64,000 nt of DNA from IMG/VR virus record IMGVR_UViG_3300031949_000031, positions 312 to 64,311 of that record; one strand, written 5' to 3'. The position numbers and the translations under genes are program-made. Of the stretch, positions 35,501-58,725 are shown piece after piece. Each line of letters begins with the position of its first letter. Positions within the stretch are counted from its first letter, which is position 1. Source of the stretch: a virus. Taxonomy: Duplodnaviria; Caudoviricetes. Under the pieces are notes generated by a model. It was not told the origin of the DNA. It did no database searches and saw only the letters and a list, made by a program, of their open reading frames with translations.

Positions 35501-38500
35501 GCCCGTCCCTCGCAATGTCCTCGAAGAGTACAAGTCCGAACCCTGGGCGCAAGAGGCCCTGCAGAAGGCCGAAGCCGCCCCCGCCGAAGGCCAGGCACAG
35601 AAGCAGGCGTGGGAAATGACGCTTGAGGAATATAGGCAATCTCTGCCCATCCCACCAAGGTCAAACAAGGTTGGCGGCACAAAAGAATTAGACAAGAGTT
35701 ATGCGATTCATAAAGCATCTATCAAAAATGCAATCGAACGTGGAGAAGTGATCCCAGATAGAGTTTTGTCTCCCCGTTATAATAATACAGAATTTAAGGT
35801 GAGACAAGCGGAAGTGCAAGCGGCAAAGAAATTATATGGGGACAGGGATGATGTTGTAAAAAATCAGTATGGAATGCCATTGGAAGTATATAGAGGAGGA
35901 CCCAAATCGGTTGCCGAACTTATACCCAATAAAATAGGTGTCATCTTTTTAACGTCAAATGAAAAAGTGGCGAGTTACTTCGCCAGCGTACATCATAAAA
36001 CATCGTCGGTAGTTTCAACTTACGTCGCCATGAAAAATCCATTGATAGTGGATGCTGGCAAAATAGAAGCCGGTTCCAATCCTGAGAGAATCGAAGGTTG
36101 GATTGAGCAAGCAAAGAAAAATGCAAACGATGGTGTGATAATCAGAAACATAAAAGAATCTGGTTTTCTCGTTGACGACTACATTGTTTTTAACCGTGAA
36201 CAAATTTTACGTAAACCGCAGGCCCCTCCCGCCCCCGCCGAAGGCAAGAAGGCCGAAGCCGCCCCGCCGACGGGGGAAGAAAAGGCTGAAGTCACTGAGC
36301 AGGAGGCCCCTGAACCTGTGCGCATCATGGCCCAGCGCCAGGCGAACAAGACGAACAAGCGGGTCGGCATCTACCTCGGCAAAGACAAGAAGTGGCACAC
36401 GTTCACGACGCTCAATCCGCCGAAGGGCGTCAAAGAATACGAAGCGGTGACACCGGAAACTCCCGAGATGGAACAGCAGAAGCAAGAGGCATTGAAGGTT
36501 GCAAGAAAGAACGTCAGGGAACATCTGACGGATACTGAGAAAAAGGCTCCCGCAGCGCCCGAGGCCGAGACGAAAAGGGGCCCCATCACCGCCGCCGAGA
36601 AGGACGCCCTCCGCGCCAAGGGCTACAGCGTCCAGGACATCCTCAAGATGACGCCGGCAGAGGCGAGGGGGAAGTTGGAAGGGCCTGAGAAGCCCAAAGG
36701 CGGCGGGGCAGGTGGTTCCTCTGTTGCCGCCGCATCTGCCGAAGCGACGGGATCAGGTTACGGCACGATTGCCGCCAGCGAAAAGAGTGCGTTCAGCGAG
36801 AAGACTGACCACAAACGTCTCAATGCGGAGATGCCGGCCAGACCATCGTTGCAGATCATCGACAACACGCTCAAGATCGCTGCACCCGCTATCCGTGGCG
36901 AACAAGCCAGGGCGACGGCTCGTGTTGTGCGAAAGAATCTCGGTCAACTGGCGCAGGAAACATCAGTGCTTCACGAGACACTGAAAAAGGCTCATCGTGC
37001 CTTTACGTTTATGAAGCGCGATGACGTTTACAGTTTCATCGACCGCATGGAGAACGGCCAAGCTCAATCGACGCCGAAGTTGGAAGAGATTTCCAGGAAG
37101 TTGCGAGAGCTTTTGGATGACCGCAGGGATCGTGTGCAGGGACTCGGCAAGGGATTGCTCGAACACTTTTATGAGAACTACTTCCCCCATATCTGGAAGA
37201 ATCCCAAAGGTGCCGAGGCCGTCATTCGTCAATTCTTCACCAAGCGGCGCCTTCAAGGCCCCAAATCGTTCCTCAAGAAGCGAACGATTATGACGGTGAA
37301 GGAAGGTCGAGAATTGGGTCTTGAATTGGTCAGTGAGAATCCCGTCGATCTGGTGCTGCTCAAGCTCCACGAGATGGATCGTTTCCTGATGGCGCATCGC
37401 ATCATTCAGGACATGAAGAGCCGAAGCCTTATCAAGTTCGTCTATTCGAGACTGAAGGCCCCCGATGGCTATATCAAAATTGACGACCGGGCATTCACCG
37501 TCTATATGCCGCCGGAGATCACCAAGAAGGAAGCCTACGATGCGCTACTGGTCGATCAACTTATGGATGTCGCCCGGAGTATGGGAATCGACACGCAACG
37601 GTTTGTCTCTATCGGCGGTAAACGATGGGGTTTTGCTCAATGGCCGCATGGTGCGCCCGGAAGTGGACCGTTCAAGGTCAGAACGAAATACGCCGGGCCG
37701 GAGTCTGTACTGGCCCATGAAATAGGACATATCCTCGGAGCCAAGTACAATCTCTACGATACATTGCGGCGCGTCAAAGAGGGTGGATTCAGAACCGTCA
37801 GTCGCGGCGAAAAGGCAGGCGAGCAGAAGTTCGTTCCCGCCCAAGAAGCCGTTGAGCATCGCAAGACGATTGACAAGGAGTGGAGAGCGTTAGCTGACGC
37901 CCGCTACAAAGGGCAGGACGTCGGGCCGGGGTTCAAGGGATACGTTCGTAAGGCCGAGGAAAAAGAGGCTGTCATGCTCGAAGCCCTGATTCATGCCCCC
38001 GATGAATTCAAGGCGATTGCCCCGACGCTGCATAACTTGTTCACGAAGTTTCTCAACAGTCACTCCGAACTGCGCCCCATCCTGGATATGAAACCATCTT
38101 TGGTTCTCGGCCAGTCCGATGCCCAGATCAAGATACCAGGCTTTACGGTCCTCGGTCATTACTATGCGCCCGAACCTGCTGCACGGTTGCTCAACAACTA
38201 CCTGTCACCGGGTCTGCGAAATAATGAAAATCTGCTCCTGAGCGGCGGTTACAATATGCTCCGCAAAGGCGGGAACATCCTGAATCAAGCGCAGCTTTCG
38301 CTGAGCCTCTGGCACGCACTAGATACGACCATTGACACGATGAACTCGACGATGGCGATGGGCATTCGGCGGCTGATGACGCCGGAACAAAGATTGGCGG
38401 GTCTCGGCAATATCCTCTCGGCGCCTTTGGCTCCAATTCTGCGTACCTGGGATGGCATAAGGTTGCGCAGGGCCTACCGAAACCAAATAGACACGATTGA

Positions 38501-50851: not shown

Positions 50852-52847
50852 GCAAATACCATCAAAGCACAGATTACAAGCAGGTCATTTACGACGAAGA
50901 GGGCTTGATAATATGCAGTTGCCGAGACAATAAGCGGGCGGCTGAGGTCTGCCAAATTCTGAATGCCCACGACGCATTGAAAGAGCAGGTCGAGAAGCTC
51001 AAGCGGGAGCTTCTGGAACGGGGTGGACATGGTTCGGGTTGCGCGAAAGAATCTGCGCATTCCCACGAAGAGCAGCAAACTCCTTGTACCTGCGGCTGGC
51101 AGGCCCGGCGGGAGAAGCTGGAAGAGGAACTCAAGAAAGGGGAATAACTATGGGCTACAAGACAAGAAAAGACCAAGTAGATGATTTCATTCGACGGGCC
51201 AAGTTGCCTCTCAAAACGAAAGCCGAGAAAGCCCGATTTCAAGAGGCCATGCGAGACGCTTGCATGGTCGGCGCGTGCGAAGAGCGCCATCGAAATCTCA
51301 AAATCATTTGCGAGTATATCCCCGTCCCAATGCGGACCAAAACGATAGATGAGATTACCAAGAAGTCCGTGCTTAAAGTGCTCGGCTTCGAGGATGGCGG
51401 CGATTGATGGCAAAGGAACAAGACAAATTATTCCCGTACTGGCACGAACTAATGCGATACATTTATGGCGAGCGTGACCGGACAAAAAAGCTTCAGCGAA
51501 AACTTCTCGTTGCGGCCAAACGGTTCCTGCCGGAATATACTTTCACATGGTGGGGTGGTATTCCCTTCTTCAAAGCTCCCTATGGTGATTATGTATGGCA
51601 TTTTTGCGTTTGTATGAAGCAGGAGCAAATCTGGAATTATCCTGAATTCAAGCAAGGTTATCGGTTCGGGTTACATCCTAAAGAGCCATACCGTGACGCG
51701 AATCCTTACGAGGAGCCGTCCAGGGCCGCAAGTTGGGATTATGGATATATCTGGGGTCTTTACAAAGGGAAAAGCTGCAAAGCCCAAAAAAGATTCCGAG
51801 AAGATAAAGGGCTGAAATGATGGCACGAGGACGCGCCTTTGTCTGCTGGTTGGACCATGACAGCAAGCCTAACGAGATTGCACTGCATCAGGGTGACACA
51901 GTATGGTTCCGTCTCAAAAAGCACTGGTGGAAGGCTGTATTCCGCTGTCTCAAAGGCAAGTACGTAGCCGAGACACATGGACGCAGGTTTTGTGTGTACT
52001 TTTGCTGGGATTTGAAACCGTTTATTGAAGGGCCGAAATGATGGCGACGAAAAACACAGCAACCAAACCGTGCCGACACAAAAAAGGCCTGGTCTTTATG
52101 CACGCCGATGACGTGACTTTCACGCCGGACCAGGAACCTTACGAATCCGGTAAAATCGAAAGTAGCGGCCTCGAATCCGTGTGGGCCGGTTTTGTAACGG
52201 CCTTTTACTGCAAAAAGTGTAAGCGGCTTGTGGGCATCGACGTGGACCCCTCTGATATTTCTGAAAGTGTAATCTGATGGCAACAAAAATCCCTTACGTC
52301 TTAGAGATTGAACGTCTCAGGGCCGAAATACGGGCCGTCAGAGGGATGAGTGTGTGGCAATATGAGCCAAGAAGATGAATTACGAGAGGCTTTGAAGTCC
52401 ATGTGCCGCCAGTTCGCGTTTTGGCGCGACGGTTGCGGATTGTGGACGGGCGGTCTATCTGCGTTAGAGGACGCATTTAGCGTATTGGGATGGTCTGACC
52501 CGTATCCCTGCCCTGGAGTACAGTGTGATGAGCCGGGTTGTGGTAAGCAAGGGACGTGTGGATTTCCCGCACCAAAGACAGAGGTGCATCCGAAAGGTTA
52601 TCGCCGAACGTGCAGCGAACATTATAAGTCTGAGGGCAAGCCAAACGGCTGACCATTTTGTCCGCGCGCGCAAAATGGTCCGTGTAAGGAGCAAGGAGTA
52701 TGGAGGCACTATGGCTGGATATACACCGCTGTTTAGCAGCACAGGTAAAAGGAATTTTTTGAAAATAAGCCTTGACGGGCCGCCAGCGGAAGGGCAGATT
52801 GTGAGTTATGGTGATTGAGCAAGTACATTCAACTTGACCGTGATACC

Positions 52848-52906
52848 GGCTGCCGGGAGAACACGCCGCGTGCTCGCTCCTCACCAGACCCGGCAGCCCT
52901 TTTTTG
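52848..52906 (+). terminator. Hairpin + T tract upstream of replication initiator
   Basis: GGCTGCCGGG/CCCGGCAGCC + T tract. Confidence 0.6.
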
Positions 52907-52929
52907 CTTTTGAAGCACGGAGGCTTGCT

Positions 52930-53919
52930 ATGGCAGGGTTTACGAAGCTCTTTTCAAGCATCATAACCTCAAGCATTTGGTCTGAAGATGACAAAACAAG
53001 AATCATGTGGATCACAATGCTCGCAATATCAGACGCCAATGGGCATGTTTCCGGGGCCGTTCCGGGGATGGCGGCGATAGCTCGAATGAGCCTTAAAGAG
53101 GCCGAAAAAGCCATTATTAACCTTTGCAAGGCCGATCCATATTCCCGCAGCAAAGATAAGCAAGGTACTCGGCTTATTGTGGCTGACGGCGGCTGGGACA
53201 TTGTGAATTATCGCAAATACCGAGCCACACGAGACCCTGAAATCAGACGTGAACAGAACCGAAAAGCTCAGGAAAAGTACCGAAGTAAGCAAAAAGTAAG
53301 CCAAAATAAGCCACAATCAGCCCAGGCAGAGGCAGAAGCAGAAGCAGAAGCAATAGAAGAAGAAGTAAAAGAAGAAGAAACGACAACAACACCCCCCGAT
53401 GGGCAACGGACAACGGACAATGGGGATGGGGATGGGGATGGGGAACCAGGATGTCAACACACCGTCAACGTACCGTCAACGGGGGGTCAGACTAAACTAC
53501 AAGAAGTGTCAACGTCAACATCATCTTCGCCCAAAGAAACCAAATCCCACAAAGGCAGTCCAGCCGACAGAATCCTTTCCGCTTGGCAGAAGCTCCCCCT
53601 GCCGCCCGAGAAGAAACAATTCGCCGCCGCCGACATCCTCGCCATCGAGCGGGCCATCTCGATTTTGGCCGGCGATTCTCAGGAACCCGTCCACTATGGT
53701 ATGATTTTGGAGGCCATCAAGAACTACCACCAAGCCCTTTCCCTCTCTGACAGCCAGACCTACAAGCACAAGCTTCACCCCTGGCTGATGGAGCATGTTC
53801 GCAAGTATGTCTCGTACAATTTCGATATAGATCACCACCGGGGCAGTAAATACCAGAAGACAGGCAAGACCGATACGATGGCCGAAATGGAGCGATTGAA
53901 AGCGAAAGGCGAGTTATGA
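52930..53919 (+). CDS. Phage replication initiator / replisome organiser
   Basis: FTKLFSSI..SSIW, GGWDIVNY.KYR, AEAEAEAEA linker encoded by GCAGAA repeats. Confidence 0.8.
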   Translation: MAGFTKLFSSIITSSIWSEDDKTRIMWITMLAISDANGHVSGAVPGMAAIARMSLKEAEKAIINLCKADPYSRSKDKQGTRLIVADGGWDIVNYRKYRATRDPEIRREQNRKAQEKYRSKQKVSQNKPQSAQAEAEAEAEAIEEEVKEEETTTTPPDGQRTTDNGDGDGDGEPGCQHTVNVPSTGGQTKLQEVSTSTSSSPKETKSHKGSPADRILSAWQKLPLPPEKKQFAAADILAIERAISILAGDSQEPVHYGMILEAIKNYHQALSLSDSQTYKHKLHPWLMEHVRKYVSYNFDIDHHRGSKYQKTGKTDTMAEMERLKAKGEL

Positions 53920-54344
53920 CCGATCTGCAAGCCCACGAAATCATCGATGACTGCATCAAAGCCCATTGGCCGGCCTGGGACTTCAAAGGGCGGGAGTTGG
54001 CTGTTTGGGTCGAAGAGCTCCGCAAGTTCGACTTCCACGCCGCCCGGGACGGCATAGATGCGTGCTACCGCGACTGGGACGGCAAGCAGTACCCACGCAT
54101 GAAGAGCATCTTGCGCTACATCCGCACGAGGGCCAAGAGCCGAGTCCAGGCGTCAGGCATCCGCGAACATTACAAAATTTGTCGGGCGGATGGCCGTTTG
54201 CGATGGCGACCGTTCTGGGGGTTGTCCAACGTGCCCCAGCAAGACATCGAGGAAGACGCAATGGCGAAATTGGAGCGGGCCAATATCATCGAACCCGGTC
54301 ATTATATCGTTTGGCCGACGCGAGAAGCCAATGTGCCGTTCTGA
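53916..54344 (+). CDS. Helicase loader/inhibitor-like protein
   Basis: Coupled to the initiator; W...L....F......YP pattern. Confidence 0.55.
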   Translation: MTDLQAHEIIDDCIKAHWPAWDFKGRELAVWVEELRKFDFHAARDGIDACYRDWDGKQYPRMKSILRYIRTRAKSRVQASGIREHYKICRADGRLRWRPFWGLSNVPQQDIEEDAMAKLERANIIEPGHYIVWPTREANVPF

Positions 54345-54468
54345 GATTTGTAGCACGATGAAGCCAAACGAAACTACGCACTCGCACGCGCGCGAGGGGC
54401 CCACGCAGGGCACAGGCGGACAAAACGAAATGAGACTTTTGGGACACAGTAAAAAAGGCGGTGACAAC

Positions 54469-55308
54469 ATGAGCGATATTATCCGCGTCTTTGTGAGGCG
54501 GACCAGTATGACGCCGACGGACGATCTGGTGGTCGTGGGTGAGCCGCCCCTATTCGTCTTGCCGGACTTGCCCATTCATGTATCCGTTGTCTTCAGTTGG
54601 GATATCGACCGTGCAGATGAGTTAGCTACGGTGTGGGCGGCGGTCTATGGAGTTGATCGGGTATCGCTCGGGGGGCCTGCCCTGAGCGACTTGAGACAGA
54701 CGGGCGATCCGGATGGCCCTTTCGTCCCAGGCCGCTATATCAAGGCCGGTGTGACGTTTACTTCGCGCGGCTGTGCTAAGAACTGCCCGTGGTGTTCAGT
54801 ACAAAAGCGAGAAGGCGCATTACGAGAGATCAACATCGCCCCAGGCTGGATCGTCCAAGACAACAACCTCTTGGCGTGCTCACGCGGGCACGTTGAGCGA
54901 GTCTTCGATATGCTTCGTCAGCAGAAGAAAGGGATCATCTTTTCGGGCGGATTGGACATCGACTATCTGCAACCCTGGCACATGGAGCTGCTCAAGAGTA
55001 TCAAGGTCGATGCGTTGTGGGTGGCCTGCGACTGCGAGCAAGATTTAGAGCGGCTCGATAAGGCGAAGGATCTGCTGGGCGATTTCCCCATCGAGAAGAA
55101 ACGTTGCTACGTGATGATCGGTTTCGGCGGAGAGACATTCGATGAAGCTGAGCGGAGATGTGAAGCAGTCTATGCCAAAGGATTCCTGCCCTTCGCGCAA
55201 CTTTATCGAGGTATCCACGCCGAGCCGTGGGGTCCATGCTGGCGGGCGTTGCATCGCAAGTGGTCTCGCCCGGCAGCGTACCGAGCCAGAAAGGAGTTGA
55301 TGAAGTGA
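54469..55308 (+). CDS. Radical SAM protein
   Basis: TSRGCAKNCPWC, DNNLLA, GGP. Confidence 0.8.
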   Translation: MSDIIRVFVRRTSMTPTDDLVVVGEPPLFVLPDLPIHVSVVFSWDIDRADELATVWAAVYGVDRVSLGGPALSDLRQTGDPDGPFVPGRYIKAGVTFTSRGCAKNCPWCSVQKREGALREINIAPGWIVQDNNLLACSRGHVERVFDMLRQQKKGIIFSGGLDIDYLQPWHMELLKSIKVDALWVACDCEQDLERLDKAKDLLGDFPIEKKRCYVMIGFGGETFDEAERRCEAVYAKGFLPFAQLYRGIHAEPWGPCWRALHRKWSRPAAYRARKELMK

Positions 55309-55745
55309 GAATCATAGGAATTGACCCAGGGCAATCGGGCGGAGCGGCGATGATAGGCGATGATGGTGAGGTGTTGGGCGTCGAGGTGTTCAAAAATGCC
55401 ACCGAGCACGATCTGGCCGAACTATTGCGGGAGTGGCGGGATTACGGCGAGGACAAGCCGTTCGCCTACATTGAGAGCGTTCACGCCATGCCGAAGCAGG
55501 GGGTATCGAGCACCTTCAAATTCGGCCAGCATTACGGCTCGCTGCTGATGGGCCTGGCGTGCCTTGAGATTCCCTACGAGCGAGTGGCCCCGGGGGTGTG
55601 GCAGCGGGCGATGGGTTGCCTGACGGGCGGCGAAAAGAACATCTCGAAGGCCAAGGCGCAGCAGTTGTTCCCGGCACTGAAGATCACACATGCAATCGCC
55701 GACGCACTGCTGATAGCAGAATATGGTCGGCGCATGAGAAAATGA
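55305..55745 (+). CDS. RuvC-like Holliday junction resolvase
   Basis: IIGIDPG, IESV, STFKFG, ADALLIA. Confidence 0.9.
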   Translation: MRIIGIDPGQSGGAAMIGDDGEVLGVEVFKNATEHDLAELLREWRDYGEDKPFAYIESVHAMPKQGVSSTFKFGQHYGSLLMGLACLEIPYERVAPGVWQRAMGCLTGGEKNISKAKAQQLFPALKITHAIADALLIAEYGRRMRK

Positions 55746-55774
55746 AACTCTAAATGAACGAAAGGACGTGACAC

Positions 55775-56161
55775 ATGGCAACAAAGACCAAAGAACAACC
55801 AGCAATCAAGACGACGCACGAAACCCGGACGCTCAAATGCAAACTGACGGACGAGGAAATTAGGGAGGCCTCGGACTGTTTGGCGCGGACGCTCGATGAG
55901 CTCGAAATGCTCGAAGATGAGCAGCAGAAGATCAAGAGCGACTTCAAAGCGCAGATCGAGGCCAAAGAAGCGGCGACCCGCGTGCAGAAAAACCTCGTGC
56001 GTGACAAGTACGCCCATAGGCAGGTGCGGTGCACAATGACGATGAACTACAGCACGCTCAAGGTCATCGTGGCGCGAGATGACACCGGCGAGATCATCAC
56101 TGAGAGAGCCATGAACGAGGATGAGAAGCAATTGAAGATCGACTTCGACTCGGAGGAATAG
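55775..56161 (+). CDS. Hypothetical coiled-coil protein
   Basis: Good RBS; operon packing. Confidence 0.7.
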   Translation: MATKTKEQPAIKTTHETRTLKCKLTDEEIREASDCLARTLDELEMLEDEQQKIKSDFKAQIEAKEAATRVQKNLVRDKYAHRQVRCTMTMNYSTLKVIVARDDTGEIITERAMNEDEKQLKIDFDSEE

Positions 56162-56166
56162 CATCT

Positions 56167-56403
56167 ATGCCCAAGATAAAAACAAATGTCACCAAGTGGC
56201 TGCCGGCCAAGGGCCAATGGTTCCATGTGCGCCTCAAGCGCAACAATCACCTGCATACAGCGGGGCCGTTCAAGTGCAGCGAGGCAGTCTCTTACGGCGA
56301 CTACGTGCAACAGATCGAGGCCGTGGATAGTGAGGGCGACCGCTGGCACTTTCCGCTGTCGGAGTTTCGATTCGAGTTGGCAGAAACGCAGAAAAAGACA
56401 TGA
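56167..56403 (+). CDS. Hypothetical protein
   Basis: GGAGG RBS. Confidence 0.65.
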   Translation: MPKIKTNVTKWLPAKGQWFHVRLKRNNHLHTAGPFKCSEAVSYGDYVQQIEAVDSEGDRWHFPLSEFRFELAETQKKT

Positions 56404-56444
56404 CTCGACTCGACAAGATAAGCCTTTTTTGAAAGGAGCACAAG

Positions 56445-57023
56445 ATGTATGAAATCAACGCAACGTACAAAGGTTTAGTACCGATGATGATGGACCGATT
56501 TGCCGACCCTTCCCAAACGGAGAGACCATCGAAGAAAAAGGCAAAAGGGCGCAATGAAGCGGAGATTCTCGCCAAACTGCACATGGACAAAAAAGGGGTT
56601 TTTGTTCCTTCCGACAATATCCGCATGATGCTAATTGGCAACAAGCATCGTCGCGGGGCAGCACAGATTTTAGGTTCAGACATGGAAGCGGCCAAAGGGA
56701 CGAAATATCTATCGATTTGCAAGGGGTTGATTTGGGTTTTGGGGACCGACGACCCGATGAAAGTTTATATCGAGCCTCGTCGGAAAACGTATGACGACGT
56801 GGATGAGCGGTCGTTCCTCAACGCTACAGGCTCACGTTCTATGGCGTATCGGCCTATCATCAAGTTGCCCTGGTCGGTGTCTTTCATTATCCAGGTCACG
56901 GACGACAATATCGACCAGAGCTTCGTCCGGCAGTTGTTCGACGTGGCGGGCCTGCGGTGCGGAGTCTGCGCCTACGGCCCGACGTTTGGCCGGTGCATTA
57001 TCTCGGAGTGGAAACAACGCTAA
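56445..57023 (+). CDS. Stand-alone RAMP/Cas7-like RNA-binding protein
   Basis: N-terminal strand + G..P (TYKGLVP), VFVPSDNIR (cf. IPGSSLKG), C-terminal Gly loop AGLRCGVCAYGPTFGR. Confidence 0.65.
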   Translation: MYEINATYKGLVPMMMDRFADPSQTERPSKKKAKGRNEAEILAKLHMDKKGVFVPSDNIRMMLIGNKHRRGAAQILGSDMEAAKGTKYLSICKGLIWVLGTDDPMKVYIEPRRKTYDDVDERSFLNATGSRSMAYRPIIKLPWSVSFIIQVTDDNIDQSFVRQLFDVAGLRCGVCAYGPTFGRCIISEWKQR

Positions 57024-57025
57024 TC

Positions 57026-57627
57026 GAAACGAGCAGATATGAGCTGAACAGAGCCGACCAGAGCAGAGCAGAACGCCATCGGAGCCGATGGGAACGGAAT
57101 CGATTTGAGCAGAGCAGAACCGAGCAGAGCACCAACAGAGGAAACATGAGACGAAGGGAACAGAGTGGACCCGAGACGATATGAGACGATTCGAACAGAA
57201 TCGAACGGAACGCCACTGGAGCGGACGAGATACGAGGTGAGGCGATTCGAACAGAGCCGAACAGAACACAAGGGGACGGGACCAGAAAAGACCAGAACCG
57301 AACAGAACGCTATTTGATTTGAAGGGAAGTGACCCGAAAAGACAAGATGTGATGGGAATTGACTTGACCAGAGAAGAACACAAGGAGAAAAGAAAAGATC
57401 AGAGTCGAGTTGAGCGGGAAAGAATAGAGAAAAATAGAACGCAAGAGGAATCAAGAAGAGCCGATTGGAAAGGAGGGGAGCTGAGGTGACATGAGCAGAA
57501 TAGAACGCGAATCACCAGAAGAACTGAGCAGAAGTGAGCAGAACTGAGTAGGAAAGAAGCGATCAGAACCGAACGCCAAGGGATCGGAATAGAGCGGAAA
57601 CAAAAAGACCAAAACAGAAAGGAACAC
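57026..57627 (+). repeat. GA-NNN pentamer array, 10 units, putative guide RNAs
   Basis: Parsed by hand: GA recurs every 5 nt; units end in GAACGC, GAACAC or GAGCAC. Confidence 0.9.
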
Positions 57628-57630
57628 AAG

Positions 57631-57909
57631 ATGAACATGGAAATCACAGAAGCCAGAGCAGCACAATTTGACAAACTCGAAAATCAGGCATGCGTATTGT
57701 TGCAGGAGTACCTTGAGGGCAAGCGGACGGGCGGGGACGATATTGTAACCGCCCGCTGCGTGCTCAATGTCATCCGGGGCAACCGCCAGACGACTACAGC
57801 ACGGGATGCCCTGAGATATGCGATGGTCAGCGACTTGGGCGACCCGAAGGTGCGTGAAAGATATGTGAAGGCGACCGAGCCTGAAATCAAAAAACTGCTC
57901 AAAGCATAG
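57631..57909 (+). CDS. Small protein abutting the pentamer array
   Basis: RBS AAAGGA lies inside the last array unit. Confidence 0.75.
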   Translation: MNMEITEARAAQFDKLENQACVLLQEYLEGKRTGGDDIVTARCVLNVIRGNRQTTTARDALRYAMVSDLGDPKVRERYVKATEPEIKKLLKA

Positions 57910-58038
57910 GGCCGGGCCTATCCAAGAGACAGACCGACCGCTTAGTGCCGACAGAAGGCAACGGCGGCCGTTAGCCGATGAATAGGACATGGGCGAATGG
58001 CCCTGAACAACAAGTTCAGACAGAAAGGAGAACCGAGC

Positions 58039-58230
58039 ATGGACTGGATTATTGAAAACTATGATGAGATCGTTAAGGCCATCGGGCTGATTATCGCGGC
58101 GGCCAGCATCATCGTGAGACTAACGCCTACTCAGCGCGACGATGCTTTTTGGCTGCCTGTCATAAAATTCATCGGGAAGTATATTGCTTTGAATAAATAT
58201 GGTCCTTCCAAAGATGAGCGACCTAAATAA
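58039..58230 (+). CDS. Holin-like protein
   Basis: TM segment + ASIIVRLTPT..DD motif; AAAGGAG RBS. Confidence 0.7.
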   Translation: MDWIIENYDEIVKAIGLIIAAASIIVRLTPTQRDDAFWLPVIKFIGKYIALNKYGPSKDERPK

Positions 58231-58237
58231 AATTTGG

Positions 58238-58265
58238 TTGACCATACACTAAAAGATGATATACT
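58238..58265 (+). promoter_or_regulatory. Promoter of inserted HNH gene
   Basis: TTGACC-N16-TATACT. Confidence 0.65.
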
Positions 58266-58287
58266 TACTTCAAAAAAAGGAGCAAGT

Positions 58288-58725
58288 ATGACATCAGAAT
58301 CGCGAAAAAGAGCATGGACAAAATACAACCGTTCAGAGAAAAAAAGGCGTGCGAGTAAAAAGTACTATGAAGCACACAAAGAAGCATGTCTTAGATATTC
58401 AATTGAGTGGCAAAAGAGAAATCGAGAACATGTCAGAGCATTGGAGCGAAAAAGAAATCATACTGCAAAAGGAAGGCAAATTCGCAGAGCCATAGAAAAA
58501 CGTTATTGTGAGAAAAATCGCATCAAAAGATTAGCTAAGGATGCTGTTCATAATGCGATTAGGGCAGGAAAACTCAAAAAGTTACCTTGCGTTATCTGTG
58601 GATGCAAGACTGTTGAAGCACACCATCCTGACTATACAAAACCATTAAAGGTTATGTGGGTGTGTAAAAAGGATCATAAGATTATCCACAAATACGGGAC
58701 CAACGAAGTCGAGAGGCCGAAATGA
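58288..58725 (+). CDS. HNH endonuclease (AT-rich insert)
   Basis: AIRAGKL...PCVICG....AHHPDY..PL.V.WVC..DH...H. Confidence 0.85.
   Translation: MTSESRKRAWTKYNRSEKKRRASKKYYEAHKEACLRYSIEWQKRNREHVRALERKRNHTAKGRQIRRAIEKRYCEKNRIKRLAKDAVHNAIRAGKLKKLPCVICGCKTVEAHHPDYTKPLKVMWVCKKDHKIIHKYGTNEVERPK

What the first reader, a model, noticed from the sequence alone, without database searches (positions are those of the whole stretch)
57026..57627. Pentamer array is punctuated into 10 polar units by a GARCRC end motif
SEEN: approximate units are 57026-57077, 57078-57133, 57134-57214, 57215-57269, 57270-57310, 57311-57381, 57382-57442, 57443-57508, 57509-57577 and 57578-57627 (41-81 nt, about 7-13 GA pentamers each). 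Every unit ends GAACGC(C), GAACAC or GAGCAC(C), after which the 5-nt phase resets. In most units the last 2-4 pentamers are stereotyped (GAGCA, GAACA, GAACC, GACCA, GAATA) while the 5' pentamers are diverse. INFERENCE: the end motif is a processing site or filament cap, analogous to a CRISPR repeat handle, and the 5' part carries the specificity.
Basis: partly seen in the sequence, partly recalled or inferred. Interest (0 to 1): 0.85.

Follow-up and report, generated by a model that had tools for sequence, protein, structure and literature searches.

The report
Phage VIPR guide array, GA-NNN type
The pentamer array is a set of about ten guide-RNA genes of a VIPR system, a CRISPR-like phage system first described in 2026, so it is a tidy, somewhat unusual example of a known class rather than a new kind of element.

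Summary
Window 57026-57626 has 10 in-phase runs of GA-NNN pentamers (7-15 each). All 10 end in GARCR followed by C, and 8 of 9 internal junctions are exactly 6 nt.

The upstream 192-aa ORF is a minimal Cas7-like RAMP. It is homologous to the published Vipr of phage SUSP1. The locus is therefore a VIPR system (bioRxiv 10.64898/2026.04.26.720920).

In 81 related records, 291 of 301 distinct junctions shift the register by +1. The junction reads C-(A/C)-A-NNN. Only the last 3-4 pentamers of each unit are stereotyped. A 92-aa gene follows the array in 58 of 89 records.

This clade differs from the canonical type in three ways:
- the scaffold is GA/NNN, not GGY/NN;
- there is no structured tail;
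- the G-loop contact residues are changed.

It probably matches the paper's "staggered arrays". That figure is in a supplement I could not open.

No RNA data and no targets were found. Processing and the pairing rule are therefore inferred.

This scan has noted VIPR-type loci before: 687 notes in at least 466 genomes.

The parts
56398..56422 (+). Short run of 5 in-phase GA pentamers in the leader of the vipr gene. Relatives carry full units here.
   Evidence: Sequence read. Upstream units are present in L002, L005, L006 and L009.
56445..57023 (+). vipr: 192-aa single-RRM RAMP (Cas7-like), P0001
   Evidence: AF2 mean pLDDT 91.6. Foldseek against PDB: top hits are Cmr4, Csm3 and type VII Cas7, E 1.5e-5 and up. 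VIA: Z 11.7, rmsd 3.7, 156 aligned, to 6s6b_I. hhalign against SUSP1 Vipr: probability 96.7%, E 3.8e-10. phrog_4652, no Pfam family.
57026..57075 (+). Unit 1: 10 GA pentamers, ends GAACG + C. The vipr stop codon lies inside a junction-like CAACG-C-TAATC.
57082..57131 (+). Unit 2: 10 pentamers, ends GAGCA + C; preceded by junction CCATCG
57138..57212 (+). Unit 3: 15 pentamers, ends GAACG + C. Probably a chimera: its last 10 pentamers equal one whole unit of the relative L001, and its first 5 have no counterpart there.
57219..57268 (+). Unit 4: 10 pentamers, ends GAACA + C
57275..57309 (+). Unit 5: 7 pentamers, ends GAACG + C
57316..57380 (+). Unit 6: 13 pentamers, ends GAACA + C
57387..57441 (+). 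Unit 7: 11 pentamers (two degenerate), ends GAACG + C
57448..57507 (+). Unit 8: 12 pentamers, ends GAACG + C; followed by the one irregular 8-nt junction (57508-57515)
57516..57575 (+). Unit 9: 12 pentamers with an internal 10-nt periodicity, ends GAACG + C
57582..57627 (+). Unit 10: 9 pentamers (three degenerate), ends GAACA + C. It overlaps the ribosome-binding site of the next gene.
57631..57909 (+). Conserved 92-aa all-helical gene (candidate vap accessory gene). It has no family and no detectable similarity to SUSP1 vap1.
   Evidence: tblastn hit next to the array in 58 of 89 records with a vipr hit. Alignment A3. AF2 pLDDT 82.5, four helices. No Pfam, PADLOC or NCBIfam family. hhalign against SUSP1 vap1: probability 0.1%.

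Best explanation
The array is the guide-RNA (vrRNA) array of a VIPR system carried by an uncultivated soil or sediment phage.

Expression (inferred). The vipr gene, the array and the 92-aa gene lie on one strand with no terminator between them, so they are probably transcribed together.

Guide units. Each of the 10 units would be one guide. By analogy with the solved SUSP1 complex, one Vipr protomer binds one pentamer. It holds the fixed G-A and presents the variable bases to a DNA target. A unit of about 10 pentamers then gives a filament of about 10 protomers.

Polarity (shown by comparison). The 5' two thirds of a unit are hypervariable and would be the specificity part. The last 3-4 pentamers are lineage-specific and stereotyped, so they would be the handle.

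Punctuation (shown by comparison). Units are separated by one extra C, followed by a first pentamer that reads A/C-A-NNN instead of G-A-NNN.

How punctuation would work (inferred). In SUSP1 each fixed motif is gripped jointly by two neighbouring protomers. A 6-nt step therefore cannot be bridged. The filament ends there, and the exposed junction is cut by a host RNase or by Vipr itself.

Function (inferred from the published systems). The RNPs bind DNA of competing mobile elements and repress it. The pairing rule for this GA/NNN scaffold (published x-N-N, or all three N) is not determined.
For: Protein.
- P0001 folds with high confidence (pLDDT 91.6) as a RAMP. It has a beta-hairpin thumb (118-139) and a glycine-rich loop (173-183).
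- 31 PDB chains score Z>=8, and 26 of the 27 shown at that level are CRISPR RAMP chains.
- It is 31% identical over 95% of its length (E 1e-7) to a LESphi2 protein. That gene is preceded by textbook GGC-NN pentamers with hairpin tails. The LESphi2 protein is 37.6% identical (E 1e-41) to the SUSP1 protein.
- The family profile matches SUSP1 Vipr at 96.7% probability.

Array in the family.
- In 88 related loci, 79 have at least 2 runs on the gene strand. There are 436 runs in all, and 0 on the other strand.
- After removing duplicates, 261 of 301 junctions are 6 nt, and 291 of 301 are congruent to 1 mod 5.
- 351 of 389 distinct run ends are followed by C-N-A.
- G and A are 93-100% conserved, while N3-N5 carry 0-0.11 bit in the 5' (body) pentamers.
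- Unit length peaks at 10 pentamers (range 7-16, 180 distinct complete units). The paper gives 9-16.
- There is a graded 3' handle.

Module. Only vipr, the array and the 92-aa gene travel together. The other flanking genes recur in 0-7 records.

Published model.. [quoted passage not shown]

Turnover. A phage with a 100% identical Vipr has 13 units, of which 7 are shared with the window's 10.
Against: - There are no RNA data: no listed run is RNA. Transcription, unit-length RNAs and RNP formation are therefore unproven for this clade.
- The paper says staggered arrays were not among the architectures confirmed by sRNA-seq.
- The defining GGY motif is not met; the scaffold is GA-N. There is also no ~40-nt structured tail. 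The whole array folds no better than shuffles (z -1.54).
- SUSP1 residues that contact G1, G2 and Y3 are not conserved: H17 falls in a gap, D177 becomes A, W178 becomes Y and R179 becomes G. Binding details therefore cannot simply be transferred.
- No target was found:
  - 383 guides were searched against 620 kb of related phage DNA under 6 informative pairing rules. They scored the same as reversed-guide controls.
  - 3 guide-derived patterns gave 0 exact hits in IMG/VR.
Confidence: 0.8

Rival explanations
1. The array is one long scaffold RNA that is never cut into units. Vipr coats a ~600-nt transcript in segments. The RNA then acts as a multi-guide polymer, as a store or sponge for Vipr, or as a translational brake on the 92-aa gene.
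For: There is no ribozyme, hairpin or known RNase site at the junctions. The last unit overlaps the ribosome-binding site of the 92-aa gene, and both genes start in the same ...GAAAG GARCA CAAG ATG context. The published text says natural vrRNAs can reach up to 30 repeats.
Against: Unit length is tightly distributed around 10 pentamers. The polar handle recurs in every unit. The paper describes processed vrRNAs from abutting 'staggered' arrays (legend only).
Confidence: 0.1
2. It is a DNA-level element, such as iterons of a replication origin or a binding array for a DNA-binding protein, and not an RNA gene.
For: It sits in the replication module: initiator-like 52834-53919, RuvC-like 55227-55745, endonuclease 58234-58725. 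A 5-bp period is half a helical turn.
Against: The array always accompanies the RAMP gene. It is always on that gene's strand (436 runs against 0), although the flanking genes differ. It shares the pentamer logic of proven vrRNAs.
Confidence: 0.03
3. It is low-complexity or coding sequence, for example the long minus-strand ORFs 56832-57383 and 57020-57454, or a chance purine-rich tract.
For: One search lists minus-strand ORFs of 144-183 aa across the array.
Against: A pyrimidine-rich strand lacks stop codons by composition alone. A fixed dinucleotide every 5 nt with +1 shifts cannot keep a reading frame. Shuffles give 0.05 runs against 10 observed. The pattern recurs in 81 records.
Confidence: 0.01

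Closest known systems
VIPR systems, reference type II of Escherichia phage SUSP1 and the Pseudomonas fulva prophage (bioRxiv 10.64898/2026.04.26.720920 and .720927)
   Same: A phage-borne, lone ~20-kDa single-RRM RAMP with thumb and G-loop. Co-oriented arrays of tandem pentamers with fixed and hypervariable positions. About 9-16 pentamers per guide. A conserved 3' part. One small accessory gene. Sequence-level homology of the protein.
   Different: The fixed part is G-A with a free, purine-biased third base, not G-G-Y. There is no ~40-nt pseudoknot tail; instead there are 3-4 in-register stereotyped pentamers. Units abut, separated by C plus a G-less first pentamer. The G-loop triad D177/W178/R179 reads A/Y/G, and H17 falls in a gap. 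The accessory protein is unrelated to vap1.
'Staggered vrRNA arrays' of the same paper (fig. S18; I read the legend only)
   Same: The legend says individual vrRNAs derive from positions overlapping by 1 nt, and the end of one marks the start of the next. That fits units which abut with a 1-nt register step.
   Different: I could not see the figure, the VIPR type it belongs to or its repeat consensus. The main text says this architecture was not among those confirmed by sRNA-seq.
Non-canonical VIPR-like repeat clusters in bioRxiv 10.64898/2026.10.21.760802 (e.g. GAC/NN, CAC/NN, WGT/NN, TGH/NN; passages read)
   Same: 5-nt periodic arrays next to Vipr-like folds, about 10 repeats, with some motifs starting G-A.
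   Different: Those are described as a fixed or one-position-degenerate trinucleotide plus NN. Here the third base carries about 0.1 bit. Whether this clade is among the 21 clusters cannot be told from the text I read.
Class 1 CRISPR crRNA with Cas7 backbone
   Same: A RAMP filament on a guide. A thumb that periodically flips bases. Polarity of a variable part plus a handle. Arrays of many guides.
   Different: The period is 5 nt rather than 6. There are no repeat-spacer units of 60-79 nt, no Cas6, Cas5 or Cas1-2, and no acquisition machinery. Unit turnover here is not polar.

Membership tests
VIPR system | Vipr protein: a minimal single-RRM RAMP with thumb and glycine-rich loop, homologous to published Viprs | tested here: met
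   AF2 pLDDT 91.6. Cas7-family top hits by Foldseek and VIA, Z 11.7. hhalign against SUSP1 Vipr 96.7%, E 3.8e-10. tblastn chain P0001 to LESphi2 to SUSP1.
VIPR system | Tandem pentanucleotide repeats that alternate conserved and hypervariable positions, on the vipr strand | tested here: met
   G and A 93-100% conserved; N3-N5 0-0.11 bit in the 5' (body) pentamers. 436 runs on the gene strand and 0 opposite.
VIPR system | Canonical GGY/NN consensus | tested here: not met
   The consensus is GA-N/NN. The papers allow 'a related consensus' (NNNGG, YNNNG, NNNNG; GAC/NN and others). None of those in the text I read is GA-NNN.
VIPR system | 9-16 repeats per vrRNA | tested here: met
   Window: 7-15. 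Family mode 10, range 7-16, from 180 distinct complete units.
VIPR system | Invariant structured 3' tail (type II: ~40 nt, pseudoknot) | tested here: not met
   No spacer longer than 6-8 nt between units. Array folding z -1.54. A sequence handle of 3-4 pentamers is present instead.
VIPR system | Adjacent accessory (vap) gene; two-gene minimal locus; mostly viral | tested here: met
   The 92-aa gene is conserved next to the array in 58 of 89 records, while other neighbours are not. The window is a virus record rated 100% complete.
VIPR system | vrRNAs expressed, bound by Vipr, and guiding binding to dsDNA by the 1-nt-skip rule | not testable with these tools
   No RNA run is listed. Target searches were blank.
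CRISPR-Cas | Repeat-spacer array with cas genes for processing and adaptation | tested here: not met
   There is no long direct repeat. None of the 10 ORFs scanned (52834-58725) has a Pfam or PHROG cas match. P0001 and the 92-aa protein match no PADLOC or NCBIfam model.

The most novel reading that the evidence does not exclude
This clade may be a tail-less VIPR variant with a 2+3 code, meaning two fixed and three free bases per pentamer.
- All three free bases might pair, so that the target is read without a skipped base. The basis is that the third base is unconstrained. It also shows natural-DNA-like neighbour statistics with its own pentamer, and weakly across the GA gap (N5 to next N3: chi-square p 0.039; TA 0.82, TT 1.25).
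- Guide boundaries are written purely as a +1 register slip, one extra C, instead of a structured tail or a ribozyme.
- The conserved 92-aa helical protein might act as a separate small subunit or cap. That would be a step towards multi-subunit class 1 effectors.
Probability: 0.12. Interest if true: 0.75.

Novelty: new member of a known kind. Interest (0 to 1): 0.38.

Why it matters
It extends the VIPR class, known only from 2026 preprints, to a well-sampled environmental clade: 81 records with arrays and about 400 distinct guides.

In this clade the guide scaffold letters (GA rather than GGY) and the protein's base-contact residues have changed together. Guides are packed head to tail and separated by a single-base register slip.

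If this is confirmed by RNA mapping, it would offer three things:
- a very compact natural format for multiplexed guides;
- a Vipr/vrRNA pair that may be orthogonal to the SUSP1 type;
- a direct test of how filament length is set.

Tried and rejected
Target search, local. I scanned 383 guides of at least 9 pentamers against 620 kb, both strands. The database was the window, 8 whole related virus records and the other loci. The rules were NNN, xNN and NNx at period 3, NN at periods 2 and 4, and NNN at period 4. Real guides and reversed-guide controls gave the same score distributions. The period-5 rules only find the arrays themselves.

Target search, IMG/VR. Three guide-derived x-N-N patterns, from units 6, 8 and 4, with 18-20 specified bases, gave 0 exact matches. 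Exact matching is strict, so this says little.

Codon-frame tests. TAG, CTA and TAA are depleted in the N3N4N5 frame, but TGA and TCA are not. TAG and CTA are rare in many bacterial genomes (my recollection, not a call). No coding-frame model beat a composition-only model. This is inconclusive.

Substitutions in 14 near-identical unit pairs. Counts were G 2, A 0, N3 6, N4 10, N5 12. These are too few to decide whether N3 pairs.

RNA evidence. No RNA holder is listed. The DNA contigs laid on the region only showed that one coded sediment-labelled run carries the L001-like array variant.

Complex prediction of two Vipr copies with the 92-aa protein. The verdict was 'no answer' (score 0.00). This is not evidence either way.

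The 92-aa protein. It has no Pfam, PADLOC or NCBIfam family and no Foldseek match at E<=0.001. VIA gave only generic helical hairpins, Z<=7.2. The Atlas gave no usable hit.

Other blanks.
- Rfam: no match.
- Promoter and terminator scans: nothing on the + strand within the array.
- Polar, CRISPR-like unit addition: rejected. The pairs G000/G001 and L022/L091 share distal units, but L016/L046, L021/L090 and L038/L039 share first, middle or last units.
- Isolated GA runs far from vipr in G004 and G006 are interrupted and look like chance.
- Cluster look-up gave no accession linking this clade to the paper's seed proteins.
Figs S17 and S18 and the locus tables of 10.64898/2026.04.26.720920 may already show this clade.

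Full report
THE OBSERVATION

Window 57026-57627 is purine-rich: 41% A, 31% G, 9.5% T. It is built of GA-NNN pentamers.

Of the 114 distances between successive GA dinucleotides, 79 are exactly 5 nt and 6 are 11 nt. Laid out in register, the tract falls into 10 in-phase runs of 10, 10, 15, 10, 7, 13, 11, 12, 12 and 9 pentamers.

Eight of the 9 internal junctions are 6 nt, a +1 phase shift. The junction at 57508-57515 is 8 nt.

GARCRC occurs exactly 10 times in the tract, always at a run end. The 20 internal GARCR pentamers are never followed by C.

The same parser finds no run anywhere else in the 64-kb window on either strand. In 2000 shuffles of the tract it found on average 0.05 runs. Tandem Repeats Finder sees only fragments, and Rfam sees nothing.

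THE NEIGHBOURING PROTEIN

The ORF directly upstream (56445-57023, 192 aa, P0001) has no Pfam family and matches only an unnamed PHROG.

With an alignment of 40 relatives it folds at mean pLDDT 91.6. Foldseek against the PDB returns Cmr4, Csm3 and type VII Cas7 chains, with 75 matches at E<=0.001. An independent aligner gives Z 11.7 (rmsd 3.7, 156 residues) to Cmr4 of 6s6b. It finds 31 chains with Z>=8, and 26 of the 27 shown at that level are CRISPR RAMP chains.

P0001 is thus a minimal Cas7-like RAMP. It has a beta-hairpin thumb (118-139) and a glycine-rich loop (173-183) before the last strand.

THE PUBLISHED CLASS

A literature search led to bioRxiv 10.64898/2026.04.26.720920. I read its Results, Discussion, two Methods sections and passages that include the supplementary figure legends. 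It describes VIPR systems as follows:
- a lone phage-encoded RAMP (Vipr), a small accessory gene (vap) and vrRNAs;
- each vrRNA has 9-16 pentamers in which GGY alternates with hypervariable NN, followed by a conserved 3' tail;
- the NN dinucleotides pair with dsDNA, skipping every third target base.

The companion structure paper is 10.64898/2026.04.26.720927; I read sections 5, 6 and 9. It shows one protomer per pentamer, and two neighbouring protomers jointly holding each GGY.

Two later preprints add further points. One describes satellite competition (10.64898/2026.10.15.759431; abstract and passages). The other reports 21 clusters with non-canonical pentamers such as GAC/NN (10.64898/2026.10.21.760802; passages).

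IS THIS LOCUS A MEMBER?

The protein is homologous at sequence level.
- P0001 matches a LESphi2 protein at 31% identity over 95% of its length, E 1e-7.
- That gene is preceded by textbook GGC-NN pentamers with hairpin tails.
- The LESphi2 protein is 37.6% identical, E 1e-41, to the phiSUSP1 protein. The flanks of the SUSP1 gene carry the published GGT-NN vrRNAs.
- The P0001 family profile aligns to SUSP1 Vipr with 96.7% probability, E 3.8e-10, over the thumb and G-loop.

The window is a virus record rated 100% complete. It has a phage replication module around the locus.

I therefore file the locus as a VIPR system. Two defining details of the reference type are not met: the GGY consensus and the structured tail.

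THE FAMILY

P0001 has 118 cluster-level relatives. I fetched 10 related loci from viral contigs, 2 from MAGs and 76 from metagenome contigs.

Occurrence and strand.
- Of these 88 loci, 79 carry at least 2 GA runs on the gene's strand.
- There are 436 runs in all, and none on the opposite strand.
- Six of the nine remaining loci have no run at all; in each the vipr match lies at or near a contig end.

Junctions, after removing duplicate contexts.
- 81 records give 301 distinct junctions.
- 261 are 6 nt, 18 are 11 nt and 3 are 1 nt (a lone C).
- 291 of 301 are congruent to 1 mod 5.
- 351 of 389 distinct run ends are followed by C-N-A.

The logo of 266 distinct 6-nt junctions reads ...GA-A-C-A GA-A-C-N | C (100%), A/C (75/21%), A (100%), N N N | GA-NNN... 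The punctuation is therefore one extra C, followed by a first pentamer that has A or C where the others have G.

In the 5' (body) pentamers, G and A are 94-100% conserved. The three other positions carry 0-0.11 bit. The third base is mildly purine-biased (A 0.38, G 0.30).

Complete units have 7-16 GA pentamers, with the mode at 10 (180 distinct units).

POLARITY

Within 49 loci that have at least 5 distinct units, the mean entropy of the three free positions is:
- 0.4-0.9 bit in the last pentamer;
- 0.6-0.8 bit in the second-last;
- 0.8-1.1 bit in the third-last;
- about 1.2 bit in the fourth-last;
- about 1.45-1.6 bit from the fifth-last onward and in the first six pentamers counted from the 5' end.

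The stereotyped end differs between lineages. Examples are GAACA GAACG, GAAAA GAAAA, GATTT GAGAA and GAACT GAAAG. This resembles the way CRISPR repeats differ between Cas lineages.

The handle here is made of in-register pentamers, not a folded tail. The whole array folds no better than shuffles (z -1.54).

MODULE AND TURNOVER

The 92-aa gene that starts 4 nt after unit 10 recurs beside the array in 58 of 89 records with a vipr hit. The other eight neighbours I tested recur in 0-7 records (duplicates between collections were not removed).

The 92-aa protein is a four-helix protein (pLDDT 82.5). It has an invariant N-R-Q-T motif, no family and no informative fold match. It shows no similarity to SUSP1 vap1 or to the LESphi2 neighbour.

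A sister phage (L001/G001) is 91-97% identical in DNA and 100% identical in Vipr. It has 13 units.
- The 7 units nearest the 92-aa gene are shared, with a few changes at free positions.
- The units nearest vipr are replaced.
- The window's 15-pentamer unit 3 looks like a fusion.

Other pairs share first, middle or last units. Turnover is therefore cassette-like and not polar. One array holds two units with identical bodies (G005).

HOW IT PROBABLY WORKS

Shown: the RAMP fold and homology, the strand-specific co-occurrence, the code-like conservation pattern, the register-slip punctuation and the polar handle.

Inferred from the SUSP1 structures:
- Vipr coats each unit with one protomer per pentamer.
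- Each fixed motif is held by two adjacent protomers. A 6-nt step should therefore end the filament and expose the junction to cleavage.

In the alignment, the SUSP1 residues that read G1, G2 and Y3 behave as follows:
- H17 falls in a gap;
- D177 is replaced by A176;
- W178 is replaced by Y177;
- R179 is replaced by G178;
- the thumb residue R138 is kept, as R136.

Loss of the Arg that stacks on Y3 fits the freed third base. This is an inference from an alignment at 22% identity.

WHAT I COULD NOT SETTLE

Targets and pairing rule.
- A local search with 383 guides under six informative rules matched reversed-guide controls.
- Three strict pattern scans of IMG/VR were blank.
- Neighbour statistics give a weak hint that the three free bases, and perhaps the next unit's first free base, are contiguous in their source. 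The chi-square p values are 0.003 for N3-N4, 0.0002 for N4-N5, 0.039 for N5 to the next N3, and above 0.1 for all others.
- Adjacency within the array DNA itself explains the first two of those correlations.
- Codon-frame tests were inconclusive.

RNA and binding.
- No RNA run holds the locus.
- The complex prediction gave no answer.

NOVELTY

The class is in print (four 2026 preprints). The paper's 'staggered arrays' legend fits this architecture, and GA-initial motifs are mentioned elsewhere.

The exact GA-NNN consensus, the C-slip rule, the pentamer handle and the 92-aa partner are not in the text I could read. The supplements were closed, so they may be there.

This scan has noted VIPR-type loci many times before: 687 notes in at least 466 genomes.

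I rate this as a new member of a known kind with some variant features, interest 0.38.

Noticed in passing
window 56398-56444 and 57612-57633: Both vipr and the 92-aa gene start in the same context, ...GAAAG GA(G/A)CA CAAG ATG. This is a unit-end motif plus junction that doubles as the ribosome-binding site and spacer. Vipr bound there could occlude both start sites (autoregulation), or junction cleavage could create the mRNA 5' ends.
   Followed up: partly
L001 4577-5345 (sister phage, whole record G001) against window 57024-57627: The Vipr protein is 100% identical, but the array has 13 units instead of 10. The 7 units nearest the 92-aa gene are shared and the vipr-proximal ones are replaced. 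A contig of one coded sediment-labelled run carries the L001-like form.
   Followed up: yes
window 57520-57548 (unit 9): There is an internal 10-nt periodicity (GAACT GAGCA GAAGT GAGCA GAACT GAGTA). A guide with a repeated pattern might address a repeated target such as iterons.
   Followed up: no
L009 / G005 36367-38352: This is the largest array seen: 2 units upstream and 18 downstream of vipr. Its handle is GAAAA GAAAA, and it has one pair of units with identical variable parts (a recent duplication).
   Followed up: partly
L012 2060-2420 (Pseudomonas phage vB_Pae_LESphi2, OQ594955.1): A canonical VIPR locus (GGC-NN vrRNAs with hairpin tails, then a Vipr annotated as hypothetical) sits next to the cI repressor, cro and a sigma-factor gene of this Liverpool-epidemic-strain prophage.
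   Followed up: partly
L074 4037-4768, L073 1576-1620, L072 2306-2355, L059 1637-1666: In some relatives, further GA-pentamer units lie after the 92-aa gene, so that gene can be embedded in the array. In L002, L038 and L039 the 92-aa homologue lies upstream of an upstream array.
   Followed up: no
window 57900-58010: The segment after the 92-aa gene folds somewhat better than shuffles (-37 kcal/mol, z -2.32). It may be a terminator-like or structured end of the operon.
   Followed up: partly
window 54190-55308: A 372-aa ORF matches a PHROG annotated as radical SAM domain protein (E 6e-20). It is the only other neighbour that recurs near vipr in several relatives (7 records).
   Followed up: no
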